Sequence record: QB023162.1
DNA: 40,208 bases
Strand: one strand, 5' to 3'
From: a phage
The translations under genes and the position numbers were made by a program. This document shows, piece by piece, positions 1 to 27,299 of the stretch (the first letter of the stretch is position 1; every line of letters starts with the position of its first letter). Under the pieces are notes generated by a model, which was given only the letters and a program-made list of their open reading frames with translations, did no database searches and had not been told where the DNA came from.

Positions 1-669
1 TTCTCCCGCTGGTTCGATGCCGCGTTTCAGAAAGCACCGGATGCGGGAACAGGAGTTATTAACCTGTTGGGGGACTTCGCACACTTCGATAGTCTGGATG
101 CGGTTACACCTGAGTCGCGCCATGTGTTGGACGCGGATACGCGCTACCAAAAACTTGTCCGCTACATGATTCGTATGGTCCGCCGTGTTGTTGATATGGC
201 GCTGGTTAAGCATAAGACAGTTAAACTTTTAATCGTTCAAGGAAATCACGACCCTGTAGGCTCTGTATGGCTCGCCGAAATGTTCTGTACATTGTACGAT
301 AACGAACCTCGCGTATTTGTGGACACCTCCCCCGACGTATACAAGATGGTCCAGCACGGGAAAACTACGCTATTCATGCATCATGGACACCGTGCGAGAT
401 TCGACGCCATAGAGTCAGTAATGATTTCTAAATTCCGTAAGGCTTTTGGAGAAAGCACATACAGCTACGCTCATGTAGGGCATCTACATCATCAGAAATT
501 AGTAGAAAGCCGCAATATGGTAGTCGAACAACACCGAACCCTGGCCGCGAAAGATGCTTACGCATCGCGAGGGGGCTGGATGTCAGGCCGTAGCGCAAAT
601 GTAATTACCTATAGCGCCGAATATGGTGAGGTAGCACGTTTAACTATTTCACCGGAGATGCTGGGATGA
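1..669 (+). CDS. calcineurin-like metallophosphoesterase domain protein, 5'-truncated by window edge (SbcD/Mre11- or phosphatase-like)
   Basis: Frame 1 is open from base 1 to the stop at 667..669. Translation carries GDFAHFD, GNHD, HHGH and GHLH motifs in canonical order. Table ORF 67..669 is only its TTG-initiated tail. Confidence 0.6.
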   Translation, partial: FSRWFDAAFQKAPDAGTGVINLLGDFAHFDSLDAVTPESRHVLDADTRYQKLVRYMIRMVRRVVDMALVKHKTVKLLIVQGNHDPVGSVWLAEMFCTLYDNEPRVFVDTSPDVYKMVQHGKTTLFMHHGHRARFDAIESVMISKFRKAFGESTYSYAHVGHLHHQKLVESRNMVVEQHRTLAAKDAYASRGGWMSGRSANVITYSAEYGEVARLTISPEMLG

Positions 670-896
670 CTTCAAAATACAACCGCGCAATGACAAACAC
701 TCACGGCAGCACTATGACTGTAGACGTTTATGATGTGCTACGTGCCTTCGACATCCGTGACCCGGCATTACAGCACGCATTGAAGAAGCTATTATGTATG
801 GGCTTGCGAGGGCACAAAGACACCGGAACAGACTTAGCGGAAGCAATTGAAAGTCTGGAGAAGTTACGAGAGTACCGAAGCAATATTGACGAGTAA
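666..896 (+). CDS. hypothetical protein (76 aa)
   Basis: ORF table. ATGA start/stop overlap with the upstream phosphoesterase ORF. Stop TAA 894..896 is followed directly by a terminator. Confidence 0.45.
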   Translation: MTSKYNRAMTNTHGSTMTVDVYDVLRAFDIRDPALQHALKKLLCMGLRGHKDTGTDLAEAIESLEKLREYRSNIDE

Positions 897-3370: not shown

Positions 3371-3984
3371 TACGCGGCCTCCAGTCTCGATATAACCAGT
3401 AATGCTGACGGTGCAGTGCCCCATGCAGTTACGGTAGCCACTTGCGGGTATACGCCGCCGAAGTTGCTTCCGGCGCTATCCCGCATAATCTGAACGGCAA
3501 ATGTCTGGCCCGCGGTGGGGTTAATAACGACGCGAGATTCAATCGGGACTGTGGTGTCCGCGCTTACCAGTTTCGTGGCCGCGGGTGAGCCGTACTGAGC
3601 GCCGTTAAGAAGAATGCGTGATAAAAGGATTGATGTCCCACTAGCACCCGTACGCCCCGCCTGTAACTTGATGCGAACGGCGTAGTTACCCGCGGCGTTG
3701 AATGTAACCAGCCCTGCAGCATTAATCATTACCGGGTTAGACGCGCTTCCCTGGGCAGCACCGAAAGTTATTTGCAATGCTGTGCCCACTGCGGATGGTG
3801 CTTGTGCTACTGTCGACGCGGCACGGAGAACTTCAACCTCTTTAACCCCCGGAGTGGCATAGATAGGCGAGTCAGCCATCTGTGTCATTACCTCGCGCAA
3901 TGCGGCTGGGGTAATAAGTCCGGTGGTATTATCAGGGAGATTTGCGCCGATAAGAGTAAACATCTCTGATTTAGTCTTAGCCAT
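3370..3984 (-). CDS. virion structural protein, function unresolved (204 aa)
   Basis: ORF table; sits in the connector gene series; Ala/Gly/Thr-rich. Confidence 0.35.
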   Translation of the reverse strand: MAKTKSEMFTLIGANLPDNTTGLITPAALREVMTQMADSPIYATPGVKEVEVLRAASTVAQAPSAVGTALQITFGAAQGSASNPVMINAAGLVTFNAAGNYAVRIKLQAGRTGASGTSILLSRILLNGAQYGSPAATKLVSADTTVPIESRVVINPTAGQTFAVQIMRDSAGSNFGGVYPQVATVTAWGTAPSALLVISRLEAA

Positions 3985-12411: not shown

Positions 12412-12466
12412 AGACGCGCCCTACGCGTCTAAATGGATTATATAAGGGGATTGGGCGGGATGTACA
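12412..12466 (-). promoter_or_regulatory. candidate late promoter with 5' leader hairpin upstream of terS
   Basis: Minus strand: TGTACA, 18-nt spacer, TATAAT (12437..12466), then a 7-bp GC hairpin AGACGCG/CGCGTCT (12412..12430) at the predicted transcript 5' end. Confidence 0.3.
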
Positions 12467-12469
12467 GAA

Positions 12470-12489
12470 AAGCCCTCCGTAGAGGGCTT
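12470..12489 (-). terminator. terminator closing the leftward early small-gene block
   Basis: AGCCCTC-cgta-GAGGGCT stem-loop; on the minus strand it is followed by TTTTCTG. Confidence 0.45.
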
Positions 12490-14016: not shown

Positions 14017-14162
14017 TTCTTCTCTCCTGCGTAAGCTGCTTTCAGTGTTTGCATCGCAGCGAACCAGAACGCGTCAGCGGGGATACTGCTACTAAGGTTA
14101 CTAACGGCGATACGTGCCATCAGTTGTGCGTCTTTGAATGCTTCGATATCTGTGATTTTCAT
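14013..14162 (-). CDS. unlisted 49-aa ORF, first gene of a leftward transcription unit
   Basis: ATG 14162 with SD GGAG 8 nt upstream, about 30 nt downstream of a sigma70-like promoter. Confidence 0.3.
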   Translation of the reverse strand: MKITDIEAFKDAQLMARIAVSNLSSSIPADAFWFAAMQTLKAAYAGEKK

Positions 14163-14195
14163 CTTCTATACTCCGTTCTCGTTGTCGATGAAGTA

Positions 14196-14224
14196 AATAT
14201 AATAGGGTCTAAGGTAATAGTCAA
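14196..14224 (-). promoter_or_regulatory. sigma70-like promoter (TTGACT, 17 nt, TATATT) reading leftward
   Basis: Minus strand: -35 TTGACT is the reverse complement of 14219..14224 and -10 TATATT of 14196..14201, spacer 17 nt; overlaps a half operator TATAATAG (14198..14205). Confidence 0.5.
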
Positions 14225-14253
14225 CTAGTCATTACAGAAAATAGATAAAAAAA

Positions 14254-14278
14254 ATCCCGGCTGGGTCAGGGCCGGGAT
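14254..14278 (-). terminator. strong rho-independent terminator downstream of the lysis cassette
   Basis: ATCCCGGC/GCCGGGAT stem; on the minus strand it is followed by a run of eight to nine T. Confidence 0.65.
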
Positions 14279-14357
14279 AAAACTGGAGAGTAGAGGGATG
14301 AAGCAGGAGGTGATTTAAGTATCGTCGGATTAGTCTCAGGTGTCAATTGGTAAAATA

Positions 14358-14382
14358 AAACCCGGATTAGCGGTCCGGGTTT
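14358..14382 (-). terminator. second tandem terminator downstream of the endolysin
   Basis: AAACCCGGA-ttagcgg-TCCGGGTTT stem-loop; on the minus strand it is followed by TTTTATTTTA. Confidence 0.55.
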
Positions 14383-14509
14383 CAGTCATAAGCCCCTGAA
14401 CCCTACGCAGTCTCCACCGCTTGGGCTGCTGCTTCAGGTTTACCAGGGCTTAGTATGCAAGCACAAGCAGCGTGGAAGTAATTTTACTAAATGCCTTCGT
14501 ATTCGTCCA

Positions 14510-14995
14510 TCATTTAACGGCTCTCCCAATAGCCTCAGCCTCTTGCCACGGTTTACCGTCGAACAGCGCCAGACGCCCGGATGTACGGCGACGCAGGCCG
14601 AGTAACGGCTTGCCGTTCTGGTTGATGAACAGCGCCAGCTTGGCACGCAGTGTTGCAATATCTCCTGAGCGCAGGGCCTTGCCCGTGCCAGTAGTAGACG
14701 CAATCACGCCGGCGCCCGCGTTATAGACCAGGTCGCACACTGCATCAAACTGTGCCTGTGTCAGTGAATGGTGTCCTGCGGCATCGACCGCGGCTACTGC
14801 CTTAGCCATATCGCGATTCAGTAACAGCAAGCCCTGTCCAGGGGTGATGGTCTGTCCTGCCTTAACATGTGGGCCGTGGCTTCCGTACCCAATAGTAAGG
14901 TACTTCTCGTTCGGCGTAGCACGATACGCAGTTCCACGGAATCCCTCGAACGCGGCGGTAAAATGCAGTCCATTATCTGAAATGTTTCGAGACAC
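14510..14995 (-). CDS. endolysin, phage lysozyme (GH24-like, resembles P22 gp19)
   Basis: Recalled similarity to P22 gp19 around FEGFRGTAY...TIGYGSHG, QFDAVCDLVYNAG and the Arg-rich LLGLRRR region; GTG start with SD GGAGGA 7 nt upstream; no N-terminal transmembrane segment. Confidence 0.8.
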   Translation of the reverse strand: MSRNISDNGLHFTAAFEGFRGTAYRATPNEKYLTIGYGSHGPHVKAGQTITPGQGLLLLNRDMAKAVAAVDAAGHHSLTQAQFDAVCDLVYNAGAGVIASTTGTGKALRSGDIATLRAKLALFINQNGKPLLGLRRRTSGRLALFDGKPWQEAEAIGRAVK

Positions 14996-18555: not shown

Positions 18556-18785
18556 CCGAGTTCCAGTCACGTGTATTTACGGCGGTCGTTTCATTAACAC
18601 GTAAAAAAGGGTCGTGCAGCGTTATCGACTTGCGTCGTAGTTATTTTAAGTACTATAGTTCCGCCATTATTGAAGGGTCGTTGAAGGTGCTGGTTAAATC
18701 CGGTGTCGTGAAAAACACTGGCGGGAAATATAGCGCCGTTGCAGAAGTTCGCGGAATGACCGCTACTTTAGAAGACCTGGAATAA
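18552..18785 (+). CDS. hypothetical protein (77 aa)
   Basis: ORF table; translationally coupled to the upstream HTH gene. Confidence 0.45.
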   Translation: MTEFQSRVFTAVVSLTRKKGSCSVIDLRRSYFKYYSSAIIEGSLKVLVKSGVVKNTGGKYSAVAEVRGMTATLEDLE

Positions 18786-18843
18786 AAGAAAGCCCCGACG
18801 CGGTGAACGCCGAGGCCAAATTACTTGCTGAAGGAAATACAAC

Positions 18844-21084
18844 ATGTCCGATGTAATTTTATCCTACTCGTGGTCACGTCGCAACGCGCGGGCGGAGAAA
18901 AAGGATATAAACGTCAGAACCACACACACGGCAACACTAGACGACCTGAAAGGGTTAATCCAGCCGCTCGATGCCGTTCGTGATGGAATTAACCCGAAGA
19001 CCGCGCCGGGGTATATCACCGCCGCGTGCGACTCTACGCACAGCACTGTAAAAGACCCGGAAACAGGTGACTTTAAGCAAGCGCGTAAAGGCTTTTTCTA
19101 TCGCTGTGACGCGTCTGTAAGCAAATCGTCGCTGGCGTATCTGGACTTCGACAGCGCAACACCGGAGGAGTACCAGGAAGCGGTGCGCCTGGTTAAGCGC
19201 AGCCGCCTGGCGATGTGCCTCTACACTACGGCATCACATACCGACGAGTCCCCTCGCTTTCGCGTCGTTATGCCGCTGGGTTGCCCGGTCGAAGGTGGTG
19301 ACATCATCCGCGTTCGTCATGGATTGCTGGAGCACTTCTTCAAAGGTATGGGCGCTGACCGCAGCGGGTTCACCCTGTCGCAGCCGATGTACCTGCCGCC
19401 GGTTGGCTCTACCGTTATCTGGTCGCGCCGCAACGACCTGATTGACCCGGACGAGTTACTGGAGGGCATCCCCGCCGTTGACGTTAGTTGCGCATCTGAC
19501 TACCAGATACCGGAAGAACTGCGCACCGCGTTTACAGATGCGTTTGAGGCGCTGGCGTTCGAGTACGGCGGTGTCATGACACCGCGCGGCCTTAAGATGC
19601 CGGCTACACCGGAACACGCCGAAAACTACAGCGACCCGACCCCGCGCCCGGACGACTTCCTGTTGTGCTTCCCTCGCGAGGGATATGAAGCGCCTAACGT
19701 AACCATGATCCACGACACCGACATTACGGCAACCGAAGGCATGTCACCGAAGGAGGTGTGGAAGTATGCGTGCGATGCGACTGGGCTGCCGTTCAGTGAA
19801 GTGGCTGAGGCCATAGGTTGGGGTGCGCGTGAATCTGTCTCATGCAGCCTAGACGACCTGGAAGACGATGATGACTCAGAGGAGGGCGAGTTGCCGGAAC
19901 CGGTAAAGGCTGATTTCGTCGTTGAAGGGTACATGCCGTCAGATTGCATATGGGATATTGTCGGGGAATCTGGCACGTACAAATCGTTCTATACGCTTGG
20001 GATGATGTACCTTAGCGCTGCCGGATACCGGTTTGCGGGGGCAGATACCCAACGTTGTCACCATTTCTATATTGATGGCGAAGGTGGTGCCGCTACACGC
20101 ACCCGTATCGACGCACTCGCGGCTAAGTACGGCGAGGAAGGTAAAGATTATGTACATGTCATCGATATGGGCGAAGTCGGAAAACTGAAAAGCCTGATTA
20201 AGTTAATGCGCGAAACTGCGGGCGATGAACCTATTGGCATGGTTGCGTTCGACACCCTTAACCAGACCCTGGCCCTGACGATTGATAAGTTTGACGAGAA
20301 CAGCTCATCAACGACAATCGGTATGGGTAAAGTTATCGCCATCCTGAAAGAAGTGCGTGACGCGACTAAAGCCGCGGTAGGCGTCGTCCACCATACCCCG
20401 AAGGGGGGAAAGAAAGCCCGTGGCAGCGGGGCACTGTATGCAGGTGTCGACGTGGAACTGACGATTGAACGTGCAACCGACCGTCAAATAAACGTATACC
20501 ACTCTAAATTCAAGCACGGGCCGCAGCAGAAGACGGTTGGCATGGTTCTTGAGTCAGTACAGTTCCGTGAAGCGCCGCCGCCGAAAGAGTACCGTGCGGT
20601 TGAGTTCCTGGGTAGCACAGAAGAATACGGCACAATCGTAAACCTGGACCTTCCTGAGCCACACAAGGCGCTTGTGTTGATGCCGTGGGGCTTCGAGCCG
20701 TTCAAGACTGACGAGGAGAAAGAGCGAGAAGAAGGGCTGACAAAGGAAGGTAAAGAAAACGTAAAGAATGCTGTAAAACGCGGGAAGGATGAAGGGCGTA
20801 AGGAATCAATACTTGCAGCACTGGAAGACCTGCAACAGTCCGACGACACAGGCCGCGGTTTTACCCAACGGCAGATAGTAGCGAACTCGGGCGACCACGC
20901 CATCACCAACCACCATCTCGAGAAGATGCTGAAAGACGGGGAGTTGATGCTCGGGTGCGATGTTAACGGTGAAGTTATGCCAGGCACATACCGGATACCG
21001 GAAAAGATGGGTGACAGATTAAGGCCGAAGACAATATACGAACCAAATGAAATGCTGGTGGTTACAGAGGAGGATTTGGAATAG
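18844..21084 (+). CDS. putative replicative primase/helicase (P-loop NTPase in C-terminal half)
   Basis: 746 aa; Walker A-like GESGTYKS and Walker B-like MVAFD in the central/C-terminal region; SD GAAGGA; primase assignment of the N-terminal half is by analogy only. Confidence 0.55.
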   Translation: MSDVILSYSWSRRNARAEKKDINVRTTHTATLDDLKGLIQPLDAVRDGINPKTAPGYITAACDSTHSTVKDPETGDFKQARKGFFYRCDASVSKSSLAYLDFDSATPEEYQEAVRLVKRSRLAMCLYTTASHTDESPRFRVVMPLGCPVEGGDIIRVRHGLLEHFFKGMGADRSGFTLSQPMYLPPVGSTVIWSRRNDLIDPDELLEGIPAVDVSCASDYQIPEELRTAFTDAFEALAFEYGGVMTPRGLKMPATPEHAENYSDPTPRPDDFLLCFPREGYEAPNVTMIHDTDITATEGMSPKEVWKYACDATGLPFSEVAEAIGWGARESVSCSLDDLEDDDDSEEGELPEPVKADFVVEGYMPSDCIWDIVGESGTYKSFYTLGMMYLSAAGYRFAGADTQRCHHFYIDGEGGAATRTRIDALAAKYGEEGKDYVHVIDMGEVGKLKSLIKLMRETAGDEPIGMVAFDTLNQTLALTIDKFDENSSSTTIGMGKVIAILKEVRDATKAAVGVVHHTPKGGKKARGSGALYAGVDVELTIERATDRQINVYHSKFKHGPQQKTVGMVLESVQFREAPPPKEYRAVEFLGSTEEYGTIVNLDLPEPHKALVLMPWGFEPFKTDEEKEREEGLTKEGKENVKNAVKRGKDEGRKESILAALEDLQQSDDTGRGFTQRQIVANSGDHAITNHHLEKMLKDGELMLGCDVNGEVMPGTYRIPEKMGDRLRPKTIYEPNEMLVVTEEDLE

Positions 21085-21381: not shown

Positions 21382-21410
21382 TTGACAAGTGAATAGCTCG
21401 CTATTATAGT
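21382..21410 (+). promoter_or_regulatory. class B promoter PB1 with operator O6 in the spacer
   Basis: TTGACA (21382..21387), 17 nt containing TGAATAG-CTCG-CTATTAT (21390..21407), TATAGT (21405..21410). Confidence 0.65.
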
Positions 21411-23721: not shown

Positions 23722-23750
23722 TTGACACCTGAATAGTTAGCTATTATAGT
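23722..23750 (+). promoter_or_regulatory. class B promoter PB2 with operator O7
   Basis: TTGACA (23722..23727), 17 nt containing TGAATAG-TTAG-CTATTAT (23730..23747), TATAGT (23745..23750). Confidence 0.65.
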
Positions 23751-27018: not shown

Positions 27019-27299
27019 CCCCGGAAGGCAAGATTCAGAAATACGCAAAAGAGAGATTCGAGGCCCTGGGCGGCCTCGTTCGAAAGCTGTCTTATGAGGG
27101 GCGTTCCGGCGCTCCTGACCTGCTGGTGATTCTCCCCGGCGGCATCGTATGGTTCGTCGAGGTGAAGAAAGACGAAAACACGAAGCCAGACCCGCACCAG
27201 TTACGGGAGCACGAGCGGATGAGCAAACGTGGTGCTAATGTTTTTGTCGTTGGTTCGTTCAAACAGGTTGACACCCTAATAGCGAGCTATTATAGTTAA
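27015..27299 (+). CDS. VRR-NUC domain nuclease
   Basis: 94 aa with GAPDLLVILPGGIVWFVEVKK, i.e. a PD...(E)VK PD-(D/E)XK core typical of VRR-NUC. Confidence 0.7.
   Translation: MTPEGKIQKYAKERFEALGGLVRKLSYEGRSGAPDLLVILPGGIVWFVEVKKDENTKPDPHQLREHERMSKRGANVFVVGSFKQVDTLIASYYS
27268..27296 (+). promoter_or_regulatory. class B promoter PB3 with operator O8, embedded in the 3' end of the VRR-NUC gene
   Basis: TTGACA (27268..27273), 17 nt containing CTAATAG-CGAG-CTATTAT (27276..27293), TATAGT (27291..27296). Confidence 0.65.

What the first reader, a model, noticed from the sequence alone, without database searches (positions are those of the whole stretch)
14229..14509. Double terminator and 280-bp untranslated tail after the endolysin
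Two tandem minus-strand terminators (14254..14278 and 14358..14382) follow a 125-nt untranslated stretch after the endolysin stop. The next leftward promoter begins immediately beyond them. Tandem terminators suggest strong insulation between the lysis transcript and the next early operon. The untranslated region contains repeated CGGATTAG elements and could encode a small RNA.
Basis: seen in the sequence. Interest (0 to 1): 0.25.

Follow-up and report, generated by a model that had tools for sequence, protein, structure and literature searches.

The report
Hidden small-RNA gene between two terminators
The two terminators after this phage's endolysin gene are real but are not a paired insulator: a strong conserved promoter sits between them, so the second one closes a 65-base unit that looks like an unannotated small regulatory RNA shared by Kagunavirus and Jerseyvirus phages.

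Summary
The window is a Kagunavirus-like phage (Guernseyvirinae). Under strict rules the window has 16 such sites against 0.1 in shuffles.

The "double terminator" reading does not hold.
- Bases 14347..14509, which carry terminator T1, are an insertion found in only 42 of about 445 related phage records. In most relatives the endolysin stop codon lies inside the next promoter's -35 box.
- That promoter, P2 (TTGACA, 17 bp, GATACT; 14346..14318), lies between T1 and T2. Its hexamers and spacing are conserved across two genera while the spacer varies at 15 of 17 positions.
- P2 would start an RNA near 14311 that ends at T2 (about 14247). This 65-nt RNA has no start codon. It has an unstructured pyrimidine-rich 5' half with conserved CUCCU(G), CAUCCCUCU and CUCC blocks that resemble anti-Shine-Dalgarno sequence, then a U-rich stretch, a hairpin and eight U.

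This is the anatomy of an Hfq-type small RNA gene. No Rfam family, public annotation or paper I could search describes it. Expression and targets are untested, and I found no target within the phage. The CGGATTAG repeat is at chance level and is not conserved.

The parts
14510..14995 (-). Endolysin gene. It is the last gene of the holin-holin-endolysin cassette. Its stop codon is TGA at 14512..14510.
   Evidence: ORF list. Pfam PF00959 at E 1e-25 and PHROG endolysin families.
14487..14513 (-). 8-codon mini-ORF (MMDEYEGI*). Its ATG overlaps the endolysin stop (ATGA). It matches the first codon plus the last seven codons of a 38-codon ORF that is intact only in phages M01 and AMO_3701M. It is either a deletion remnant or an ancestral short form.
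   Evidence: Sequence. M01 locus L058 287..403. tblastn finds the long form in only 2 records.
14481..14509 (-). P1, a weak candidate promoter: TGGACG, 17 bp, TAAAAT (9 of 12). Every allele I read by eye from the, 41 and 51 sequences keeps a TAnnnT box here (TAAAAT, TAAACT, TAATCT, TATTCT, TATTAT, TATAAT).
   Evidence: This stretch is coding sequence in M01, so the conservation is ambiguous.
14389..14452 (-). 64-nt imperfect hairpin in the tail upstream of T1. It is an indel: Golestan-type relatives lack it.
   Evidence: Fold. RNAalifold on 9 variants shows one compensatory C-G to U-A change and several G-U to G-C changes, with little variation overall. Indel seen in L010 and L013.
14351..14382 (-). 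T1, an intrinsic terminator (9-bp stem, 7-nt loop, then UAUUUUA). It is the terminator of the inserted accessory module. In this phage it is the first stop for the lysis transcript.
   Evidence: Present in only 42 records.
14318..14346 (-). P2, a sigma-70 type promoter: TTGACA (14346..14341), 17 bp, GATACT (14323..14318).
   Evidence: 5 matches to TTGAC-N19-ATANT in the window against 0.17 expected. In 23 distinct variants the hexamers are invariant in 22/23 and 23/23 sequences, spacing is always 17, and the spacer varies at 15 of 17 positions.
14247..14311 (-). Predicted 65-nt noncoding RNA running from P2 to T2: ACCUCCUGCUUCAUCCCUCUACUCUCCAGUUUUAUCCCGGCCCUGACCCAGCCGGGAUUUUUUUU.
   Evidence: The start is inferred from a purine 7 nt after the -10 box in all four lineages. 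Fold gives a 33-nt open 5' part plus a hairpin. Alignment of 22 variants. A covariance model finds one copy per genome, at 94 and 69 bits.
14279..14311 (-). Unstructured pyrimidine-rich 5' region with the conserved blocks CUCCU(G), CAUCCCUCU and CUC(U)CC, followed by the U-rich stretch UUUUAU. This is the proposed pairing (seed) region.
   Evidence: Only 2 G in 33 nt and no ATG, GTG or TTG on this strand (read).
14247..14278 (-). T2, an intrinsic terminator (8-bp stem, 9-nt loop, eight U). In most relatives it is the only terminator after the endolysin.
   Evidence: The inner stem pair changes C-G to U-A (and the stem lengthens) between Kagunavirus and Jerseyvirus. Annotated as a terminator in Shelanagig and Schulenburg.
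14196..14224 (-). P3, a promoter: TTGACT, 17 bp, TATATT. It drives the next operon of small genes.
   Evidence: Nearly invariant across both genera.
14160..14195 (-). Conserved 5' leader with GGAG (14174..14171) and the ATG (14162..14160) of the first downstream gene (49 aa, phrog_2180).

Best explanation
The 350 bp between the endolysin and the next gene is not one untranslated tail with a double stop. It holds three successive units on the minus strand.

(1) 14509..14351 is an accessory, mosaic insert. It contains an 8-codon mini-ORF, a 64-nt hairpin and its own terminator T1. It is present in a minority of relatives. In this phage T1 ends the lysis transcript.

(2) 14346..14247 is a self-contained mini-gene conserved through the Kagunavirus and Jerseyvirus records and contigs examined. 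The host-type promoter P2 (TTGACA/17/GATACT) starts transcription near 14311, and terminator T2 releases a noncoding RNA of about 65 nt.

(3) P3 (14224..14196) plus a conserved leader then expresses the next operon.

Inferred mechanism for unit 2. Host RNA polymerase makes the RNA from the start of infection. Where T1 is absent, the RNA could also arise from the 3' end of the lysis mRNA. Its 33-nt open, pyrimidine-rich 5' half carries three anti-Shine-Dalgarno-like blocks. These would pair with purine-rich ribosome-binding regions of target mRNAs, most likely host mRNAs, and block translation. The U-rich stretch, hairpin and eight-U tail form the kind of module that binds Hfq.

Shown here: the sequence elements, their conservation pattern, and the absence of coding potential. 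Inferred: transcription, RNA stability, Hfq binding and the targets.
For: Terminators. Both are real and far above chance.

P2 as a promoter.
- It is one of only five matches to TTGAC-N19-ATANT in 40 kb, against 0.17 expected. The other four each sit in front of a gene.
- Across 23 distinct variants from two genera the hexamers and the 17-bp spacing are fixed while the spacer varies at 15 of 17 positions. One lineage (L021) has a wholly different spacer.
- The 6 nt after the -10 box are variable: 35% identity between genera and 49% within Jerseyvirus, though 96% within Kagunavirus. Position 7 is a purine in all four lineages, and conservation resumes there with (C)CUCCUG.

The RNA.
- The blocks CUCCU(G), CAUCCCUCU and CUCC are kept between genera across indels.
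- The stem of T2 changes by compensatory substitution.
- It folds as an open 5' half plus a hairpin.
- There is no start codon on the sense strand.
- There is one copy per genome.

Conservation and context.
- Within Kagunavirus the unit is 96% identical on average, against 80% for the adjacent 260 nt of endolysin.
- In most relatives the endolysin stop lies inside the P2 -35 box, the layout of a small RNA at a gene's 3' end with its own promoter.
- The insert carrying T1 is in 42 of about 445 records, and the slot shows at least seven configurations.
Against: - No transcript data were available. The promoter call is by consensus and conservation only.
- The whole P2-to-ATG block is conserved within each genus, including the 22-nt T2-P3 spacer at 92%. 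High identity is therefore not specific to the RNA.
- Diversity is low, with effectively four lineages.
- I found no convincing target. Helices of at least 9 bp between the 5' region and the phage genomes are no more frequent than for shuffled RNAs (57 against 54, and 48 against 67).
- Host targets could not be screened. A BLAST of the region against 5,426 E. coli genomes gave nothing at E up to 10, which only excludes long matches.
- P2 always occurs together with P3, so a role as an upstream second promoter with a leaky terminator cannot be excluded.
Confidence: 0.55

Rival explanations
1. Plain transcription punctuation. T1 and T2 only stop the lysis transcript. P2 is merely a second upstream promoter for the downstream operon, or is inactive. 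The pyrimidine-rich stretch is conserved only because it lies in a conserved promoter-terminator linker that also serves as a recombination joint between gene modules.
For: The whole block from P2 to the ATG, spacers included, is 92-96% identical within each genus. The flanking genes are mosaic. P2 never occurs without P3. No target was found.
Against: Between genera the conservation is patterned rather than uniform. The hexamers and RNA blocks are kept, while the spacer and the 6 nt after the -10 box are not. A strong terminator with an 8-bp G+C-rich stem and eight U lies 65 nt after a promoter of PL quality, so most P2 transcripts should end there. P3 alone is near consensus, so a second promoter behind a terminator adds little.
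Confidence: 0.2
2. The same RNA exists but is produced only by termination or processing of the lysis mRNA 3' end (a purely 3'-UTR-derived small RNA). P2 is not a working promoter.
For: In most relatives the pyrimidine-rich region and T2 directly follow the endolysin stop.
Against: In this window and 41 other records T1 stands between the endolysin and the region. Without P2, the lysis transcript would rarely reach it. The conserved hexamers and spacing also argue for a working promoter.
Confidence: 0.1
3. An antitermination leader like lambda PR'-tR'. P2 is always on, T2 stops it, and a phage factor later lets polymerase read through into the downstream small genes and the head and tail genes. 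The short RNA would be a by-product.
For: The layout is a constitutive-looking promoter with a terminator 65 nt downstream, followed on the same strand by small genes, terminase and virion genes.
Against: A near-consensus promoter (P3) follows T2 directly. No Q- or N-type antiterminator is annotated in the well-annotated relative Shelanagig. No conserved -10-like pause element follows P2, since that stretch is the least conserved.
Confidence: 0.07
4. The C-rich, G-poor untranslated stretch is a loading site for the Rho termination factor that backs up termination of the lysis operon.
For: 33 nt with 2 G and many C, unstructured.
Against: It is short for a Rho loading site. It is followed at once by an efficient intrinsic terminator and preceded by a conserved promoter.
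Confidence: 0.03
5. The conserved blocks serve a small protein gene on the opposite (plus) strand. GGAG, 9 nt, then ATG at 14297 gives MKQEVI*, and some public records annotate antisense ORFs here.
For: A Shine-Dalgarno-like GGAG and an ATG are present on the plus strand. Bas76_0074 and Shelanagig_059 are annotated over this region.
Against: The plus-strand ORF is 6 codons in Kagunavirus but runs on into the endolysin antisense strand in Jerseyvirus. Frame and length are therefore not conserved (read). The T-run length varies from 7 to 14, shifting the frame of the annotated ORFs. No conserved plus-strand promoter is present.
Confidence: 0.02

Closest known systems
StxS and the lambda 6S RNA: short RNAs made from the late promoter PR' and ended at tR' in lambdoid phages (StxS: PMC7547250)
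   Same: A phage promoter is followed within about 70-200 nt by an intrinsic terminator, giving a short noncoding RNA. StxS is a 74-nt RNA that binds Hfq and acts in trans on host and phage mRNAs (PMC7547250 abstract).
   Different: StxS is a by-product of Q antitermination in temperate phages and lies upstream of the lysis genes. Here the unit lies downstream of the lysis genes in phages of a subfamily with no annotated Q, and a separate promoter follows it. There is no sequence similarity, and Rfam gives no hit.
Hfq-dependent small RNAs with their own promoter at the 3' end of a gene (MicL and DapZ type), and those with the pairing region at the very 5' end (RybB, OmrA/B). This comparison rests on my own knowledge.
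   Same: The promoter overlaps the end of the upstream coding region; in most relatives the stop codon lies inside the -35 box. The terminator is shared with the mRNA. The conserved single-stranded region starts at the predicted 5' end. A U-rich stretch, a hairpin and at least 7 U form the Hfq-binding module.
   Different: These are host chromosomal genes with known targets and demonstrated Hfq binding. Here nothing has been tested experimentally.
Small RNAs that use anti-Shine-Dalgarno-like pyrimidine motifs: Betaproteobacteria toxic sRNA (Rfam RF02278), CyaR, staphylococcal RsaE. The descriptions are from my own knowledge.
   Same: Pyrimidine motifs such as CCUCC or UCCC lie in an open region upstream of a terminator. 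RF02278 is the best, sub-threshold, Rfam match: 24.7 bits, aligned on UCUCC plus the terminator.
   Different: The score is half the family's gathering score of 50, and the match is carried mostly by the generic terminator. This is not a member.
Lambda PreS (LPR1), a phage small RNA found by RIL-seq that acts on host dnaN (bioRxiv 10.1101/2024.10.31.621285)
   Same: A phage-encoded small RNA proposed to act on host mRNAs during lytic growth.
   Different: The phage, sequence and location differ. PreS has experimental support. I made no sequence comparison beyond the negative Rfam and BLAST searches.
Tandem intrinsic terminators used as strong insulators, for example at the ends of rRNA operons (my own knowledge)
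   Same: Two good hairpin-plus-U terminators lie on one strand within 130 nt.
   Different: A conserved promoter lies between them, and the pairing is present in only about a tenth of relatives.

Membership tests
Intrinsic (Rho-independent) terminator | G+C-rich hairpin directly followed by a run of U on the transcribed strand | tested here: met
   T1 at 14382..14358 followed by UAUUUUA. T2 at 14278..14254 with eight U. Both are found by a strict scan that gives 16 sites against 0.1 in shuffles.
Intrinsic (Rho-independent) terminator | The stem is maintained by compensatory change in relatives | tested here: met
   T2: the inner pair changes C-G to U-A and the stem grows from 8 to 10 bp in Jerseyvirus; single G-U variants also occur. 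T1: the stem is invariant and the loop varies, which is uninformative for T1.
Tandem double terminator (insulator) | Two terminators in series acting on one transcript, with no promoter between them | tested here: not met
   P2 (TTGACA/17/GATACT) lies at 14346..14318, between T1 and T2.
Tandem double terminator (insulator) | The arrangement is conserved in relatives | tested here: not met
   The T1-bearing insert is in 42 records. The T2 region is found in about 445.
Hfq-type trans-acting small RNA | Own promoter, or a defined processing site, giving a discrete 5' end | tested here: inconclusive
   The promoter is predicted from consensus, rarity and its conservation pattern. No transcript data were available.
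Hfq-type trans-acting small RNA | Terminator hairpin preceded by a U-rich stretch and followed by at least 6-7 U (the Hfq-binding module) | tested here: met
   AGUUUUAU, then the hairpin, then eight U (7 to 14 in relatives). This is met at the sequence level only.
Hfq-type trans-acting small RNA | Conserved single-stranded pairing region | tested here: met
   A 33-nt open 5' region. CUCCU(G), CAUCCCUCU and CUCC are conserved between genera.
Hfq-type trans-acting small RNA | Noncoding | tested here: met
   No ATG, GTG or TTG on the sense strand between 14311 and 14247. The antisense mini-ORF is not conserved.
Hfq-type trans-acting small RNA | Complementarity to target mRNAs that is conserved or enriched | tested here: inconclusive
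   Phage genomes show no enrichment over shuffles and no shared top target. Host transcriptomes could not be screened. Only long matches to E. coli genomes are excluded.
Hfq-type trans-acting small RNA | Physical binding to Hfq and a regulatory effect | not testable with these tools
   Needs co-immunoprecipitation, RIL-seq or reporter assays.
Any Rfam 15 family (for example RF02278 Betaproteobacteria toxic sRNA) | Score at or above the family's gathering threshold | tested here: not met
   No hit at gathering thresholds anywhere in the window. The best sub-threshold hit is 24.7 bits against 50.
Lambda PR'-tR' type antitermination leader | Promoter-proximal terminator upstream of late genes | tested here: met
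   T2 lies 65 nt after P2. Small genes, terminase and virion genes follow on the same strand.
Lambda PR'-tR' type antitermination leader | Downstream genes depend on read-through (no promoter of their own), and a Q-like factor is encoded | tested here: not met
   P3 follows T2 directly. No antiterminator is annotated in Shelanagig. I did not do a full protein-domain screen of the window for Q-like proteins.
cis-antisense RNA (oop or sar type) | Overlaps a gene on the opposite strand | tested here: not met
   No credible plus-strand gene lies between 14160 and 14520.

The most novel reading that the evidence does not exclude
A whole subfamily of virulent enterobacterial phages (Kagunavirus and Jerseyvirus, several hundred sequenced isolates, many studied for therapy or biocontrol) carries a dedicated, strongly expressed small RNA. 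Its triple anti-Shine-Dalgarno-like 5' region would act as a broad translation blocker or RNA sponge for host takeover. In phages like this one, a second small-RNA gene (P1, hairpin, T1) would sit in tandem next to it.
Probability: 0.12. Interest if true: 0.7.

Novelty: new member of a known kind. Interest (0 to 1): 0.4.

Why it matters
Small RNAs with a worked-out function are known mostly from temperate phages and prophages, such as StxS, PreS and the anti-sRNAs of EHEC prophages. A 2025 review of phage-derived small RNAs that I searched does not mention Jersey-like or Kagunavirus phages.

If the 65-nt RNA is real, it is a conserved noncoding gene present in several hundred sequenced genomes. 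It is currently unannotated, or covered by spurious ORF calls such as Shelanagig_059 and Bas76_0074.

It would be a compact, easily mutated handle on how a virulent siphophage manipulates host translation or RNA networks. It is also relevant to engineering these phages, many of which are candidates for Salmonella and E. coli K1 control.

The double terminator itself is ordinary. It is the by-product of a small accessory module inserted into a mosaic slot.

Tried and rejected
- **Rfam and tRNA.** Rfam at gathering thresholds gave nothing over the whole window. Relaxed searches gave only terminator-driven sub-threshold hits. There are no tRNA or tmRNA genes.
- **E. coli genomes.** BLAST of 14240..14509 against 5,426 complete E. 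coli genomes gave no match at E up to 10. The unit is therefore not copied from, or long-antisense to, a host or prophage sequence.
- **Bacterial genome scan.** A motif scan of 185,579 bacterial and archaeal genomes gave 6 hits. Three are short scaffolds of a Taishania assembly carrying Jerseyvirus sequence, which I read as contamination. The other three are unrelated repeats.
- **Target search inside the phage.** Duplex energies and counts of helices of at least 9 bp against shuffled RNAs show no enrichment. No target is shared between the window and Shelanagig. Pairing with the conserved P3 leader (GAGUAGAG) is only 8-9 bp, is not top-ranked, and is weakened in this very window (GAGUAUAG).
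- **Hairpin as a partner of the small RNA.** An 11-nt complementarity between the RNA's 5' region and the 64-nt hairpin (inverted repeat I2) is not kept in relatives that carry the hairpin; they read CUGUUCCA or CUGCUCCA. I treat it as coincidence.
- **CGGATTAG repeat.** Chance level and not conserved.
- **Plus-strand mini-ORF and annotated antisense ORFs.** Not conserved in frame or length.
- **Paralogous copies.** The covariance model finds one copy per genome. A weak second hit (17 bits) is a different element.
- **Literature.** I found no paper on small RNAs or transcription start sites in Kagunavirus or Jerseyvirus. The one Kagunavirus RNA-seq study I located did not use the terms intergenic, non-coding or promoter.
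- **"Module X" in relatives.** No Rfam hit and no unusual folding energy.
Full report
**Context.** The window is almost a whole genome of a Kagunavirus-like siphophage of the subfamily Guernseyvirinae. A 3-kb piece around the finding matches 310 phage records, led by Escherichia phages of the K1G/K1ind group and by Salmonella Jersey-like phages. All genes near the finding are on the minus strand: holin, holin, endolysin (14995..14510, Pfam Phage_lysozyme), then small genes of unknown function and the terminase. The annotated relative Shelanagig has the same order.

**Observation check.** Read on the minus strand, the endolysin stops at TGA 14512..14510.
- After 127 nt comes AAACCCGGA-CCGCUAA-UCCGGGUUU plus UAUUUUA (T1, 14382..14358).
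- Further on comes AUCCCGGC-CCUGACCCA-GCCGGGAU with eight U (T2, 14278..14254).
- Both fold as predicted and are listed as perfect inverted repeats.
- The built-in terminator scan reported neither. I attribute this to its rules, a loop limit of 8 and greedy stem extension.
- My stricter scan finds 16 sites in the window against 0.1 in shuffles.
- The next promoter (TTGACT/17/TATATT, 14224..14196) starts 22 nt after T2.
- CGGATTAG does occur twice, but at chance level. One copy is in the T1 loop, where relatives read G, T or A at the variable base. The other is in a variable promoter spacer.

Between the two terminators lies TTGACA, 17 bp, GATACT (14346..14318). From my own knowledge these are the hexamers of lambda PL. 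The pattern TTGAC-N19-ATANT occurs five times in the window against 0.17 expected. The other four copies (P3, and three plus-strand sites at 21382, 23722 and 27268) each stand just upstream of a gene. P2 is the only one followed by a terminator instead of an ORF.

**The tail and T1 are an insertion.**
- BLAST with the whole intergenic region finds about 445 records. Most align only from the -35 box of P2 onward.
- The 163 bp from 14509 to 14347 is found in just 42 records, all Escherichia phages or Kagunavirus.
- In most relatives the endolysin ends ...GGT TGA CAC, so its stop codon lies inside the TTGACA of P2. In Jerseyvirus the TAG sits 2 nt before it.
- The slot between the endolysin stop and P2 is mosaic, with at least seven configurations:
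  - empty;
  - the window type, with an 8-codon mini-ORF, a 64-nt hairpin and T1;
  - the same without the hairpin (Golestan type);
  - a 38-codon ORF plus hairpin plus T1 (M01 and one twin record only);
  - a 30-codon ORF for a hydrophobic peptide (L014, L036);
  - a 24-codon ORF plus T1 plus a further module of about 120 nt (L015, Ivi);
  - that further module alone (L034).
- The window's mini-ORF (14513..14487) equals the first codon plus the last seven codons of the M01 ORF. With only two records holding the long form, I cannot say which state is ancestral.
- The 64-nt hairpin (14452..14389) has modest comparative support: one compensatory pair, several G-U to G-C switches, and little variation.
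- A weak promoter-like site P1 (TGGACG/17/TAAAAT, 14509..14481) precedes the module. Every allele I read by eye from the, 41 and 51 sequences keeps a TAnnnT box there. A second RNA of about 124 nt running from P1 to T1 is therefore possible, at perhaps 0.25-0.3. The evidence is thin, and part of that stretch is coding in M01.

**The conserved unit P2 to T2.** I collected this region from about 45 viral contigs, 22 further distinct metagenome variants and several GenBank phages. Four lineages exist: the main Kagunavirus type, an L021 type, and two Jerseyvirus types.
- In 23 distinct promoter variants the -35 box is TTGACA in 22 and the -10 box is xATACT in all. Spacing is always 17, and 15 of 17 spacer positions vary. 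L021 has an unrelated spacer. Two metagenome variants weaken the -35 box to TTAACA or TTGGCA.
- The six bases after the -10 box differ between lineages (TAAATC, GGTGTC, AAACCT, GGTTTC). Identity there is 35% between genera and 49% within Jerseyvirus, but 96% within Kagunavirus. The seventh base is always a purine, A or G.
- From that base onward conservation resumes. (C)CUCCUG, then 3-6 variable bases, then CAUCCCUCU, then CUC(U)CC, then UUU(U)AU, then the hairpin and 7-14 U.
- This is the pattern expected if transcription starts at that purine (14311 here) and the RNA, not the DNA upstream of it, is under constraint.
- The T2 stem differs between genera by a compensatory C-G to U-A change and two added pairs.
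- The predicted 65-nt RNA folds as a 33-nt open region with only 2 G, plus the terminator hairpin.
- It has no ATG, GTG or TTG.
- A covariance model built from 22 variants finds exactly one strong copy in the window (94 bits) and one in Shelanagig (69 bits).
- Within Kagunavirus the RNA is 96% identical on average, against 80% for the adjacent 260 nt of endolysin.
- Caveat: the whole P2-to-ATG block, including a 22-nt spacer, is also 92-94% identical.

**Likely mechanism.** The anatomy is that of an enterobacterial Hfq-dependent small RNA. It has a promoter at the very end of the upstream gene and a conserved single-stranded region beginning at the 5' end. It also has a U-rich stretch, a terminator hairpin and a long U tail; that this combination is the Hfq-binding module is my own knowledge of the work of Otaka, Ishikawa and Aiba.
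- The three pyrimidine blocks are each complementary to Shine-Dalgarno-like GGAG, AGGAG or GAGGG. In Kagunavirus the first block, ACCUCCU, equals the anti-Shine-Dalgarno core of 16S rRNA (my own knowledge).
- The most economical reading is a base-pairing repressor of translation initiation. Host polymerase would make it from the first minutes of infection. Where T1 is absent, it could also come from the 3' end of the lysis mRNA.
- I could not identify targets. Neither duplex energies nor helix counts in the window or in Shelanagig exceed shuffled controls, and no top hit is shared.
- A host transcriptome could not be screened with these tools. Only long matches to E. coli genomes are excluded.

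**Rivals.**
- Pure punctuation, with P2 as a redundant upstream promoter (0.2). It is hard to square with the patterned conservation between genera and with a strong terminator 65 nt after a strong promoter. It is not excluded, because P2 never occurs without P3.
- A purely 3'-UTR-derived RNA (0.1). It fails to explain the conserved hexamers and the 42 genomes where T1 blocks access from the lysis operon.
- A PR'-tR'-like antitermination leader (0.07). P3 and the lack of an annotated antiterminator contradict it.
- A Rho loading site (0.03).
- A plus-strand mini-ORF (0.02). It lacks conservation.

**Comparison with known systems.**
- The nearest functional analogue is StxS. It is a 74-nt Hfq-binding RNA produced when the constitutive late promoter of Shiga-toxin phages is stopped at tR' (PMC7547250).
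- Lambda PreS is another phage small RNA acting on host genes (bioRxiv 10.1101/2024.10.31.621285).
- The design with anti-Shine-Dalgarno-like motifs recalls the Betaproteobacteria toxic sRNA, which is the best but clearly sub-threshold Rfam match (24.7 against 50 bits).
- None of these is a family to which this element belongs.
- I found no paper describing small RNAs or transcript ends in Kagunavirus or Jerseyvirus.
- Public annotations either leave the region blank, mark only the terminator, or place doubtful ORFs over it.

**Verdict.**
- The double terminator is an ordinary consequence of a small accessory module inserted into a mosaic slot.
- The noteworthy feature is the conserved promoter-to-terminator mini-gene between the terminators. 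It is a well-supported but experimentally untested candidate for a phage small RNA. I class it as a new member of a known kind.
- Confidence that a discrete RNA is made from P2 to T2 is about 0.55-0.6. Confidence that it works as a pairing regulator through its pyrimidine-rich 5' end is about 0.35.

Noticed in passing
window 18785..18884 (minus strand): A promoter-like site (TTGCGA/17/TAAAAT, 18884..18856) is followed about 40 nt later by a minus-strand terminator (18817..18791, then UUUCUUUUAUU). The resulting RNA of about 60 nt would be antisense to the ribosome-binding site and ATG (18844) of the 746-aa primase/helicase-like gene, like lambda oop or P22 sar. Shelanagig has the same layout (TTGATA/17/TAAATT and a hairpin with changed stem bases, L056 35545..35640).
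   Followed up: partly
window 21382..21410, 23722..23750, 27268..27296 (plus strand): Three near-consensus promoters (11 of 12) upstream of replication-module genes share TTGACA...AATAGC-NN-GCTATTATAGT. The palindrome AATAGC/GCTATT overlaps the -10 box and looks like an operator for a phage repressor. P3 shares only the CTATTATA part.
   Followed up: no
L014 about 3612..3704, and L036 (relatives): In some Kagunavirus contigs the slot after the endolysin holds a 30-codon ORF for a hydrophobic peptide (MTEFDFIFLAIGAGAVVGAFWGAIDAFRKG). Its ATG overlaps the endolysin stop and its TGA lies inside the P2 -35 box. It may be a small membrane protein of the lysis cassette.
   Followed up: no
L059 about 394..468 and 541..660; L015, L023, L034: Other relatives carry a 24-codon ORF with a strong GGAGG site before T1. 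After T1 comes a module of about 120 nt that begins TTGATA/17/GATTAA and runs up to P2. It has no Rfam hit and unremarkable folding energy.
   Followed up: partly
L061, L062, L065 (Taishania pollutisoli CZZ-1 scaffolds): Scaffolds of a Bacteroidota genome assembly, two of them under 1 kb and one of 19 kb, carry Jerseyvirus endolysin-P2-T2 sequence. This is most likely phage contamination of the assembly, not a host copy.
   Followed up: partly
L001 1387..1590 (Shelanagig_059); L060 557..679 and 683..793 (Bas76_0074 and 0075): Public records annotate hypothetical proteins across the P2-T2 region, one running through the terminator and two on the antisense strand. Frame and length are not conserved among relatives, so these are probably false gene calls.
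   Followed up: partly
window 12437..12489 (minus strand): A second terminator-then-promoter junction lies just upstream of the small terminase gene. A hairpin with a U run at 12489..12470 is followed by TGTACA/18/TATAAT (12466..12437). This is the same punctuation style as T2 followed by P3.
   Followed up: no
window 14299..14309 and 14426..14436: An 11-nt stretch of the 64-nt hairpin (UGAAGCAGCAG) is 10/11 complementary to the 5' region of the P2 RNA in this window. Relatives that carry the hairpin have other alleles of the RNA that break the match, so I treat it as coincidence.
   Followed up: yes
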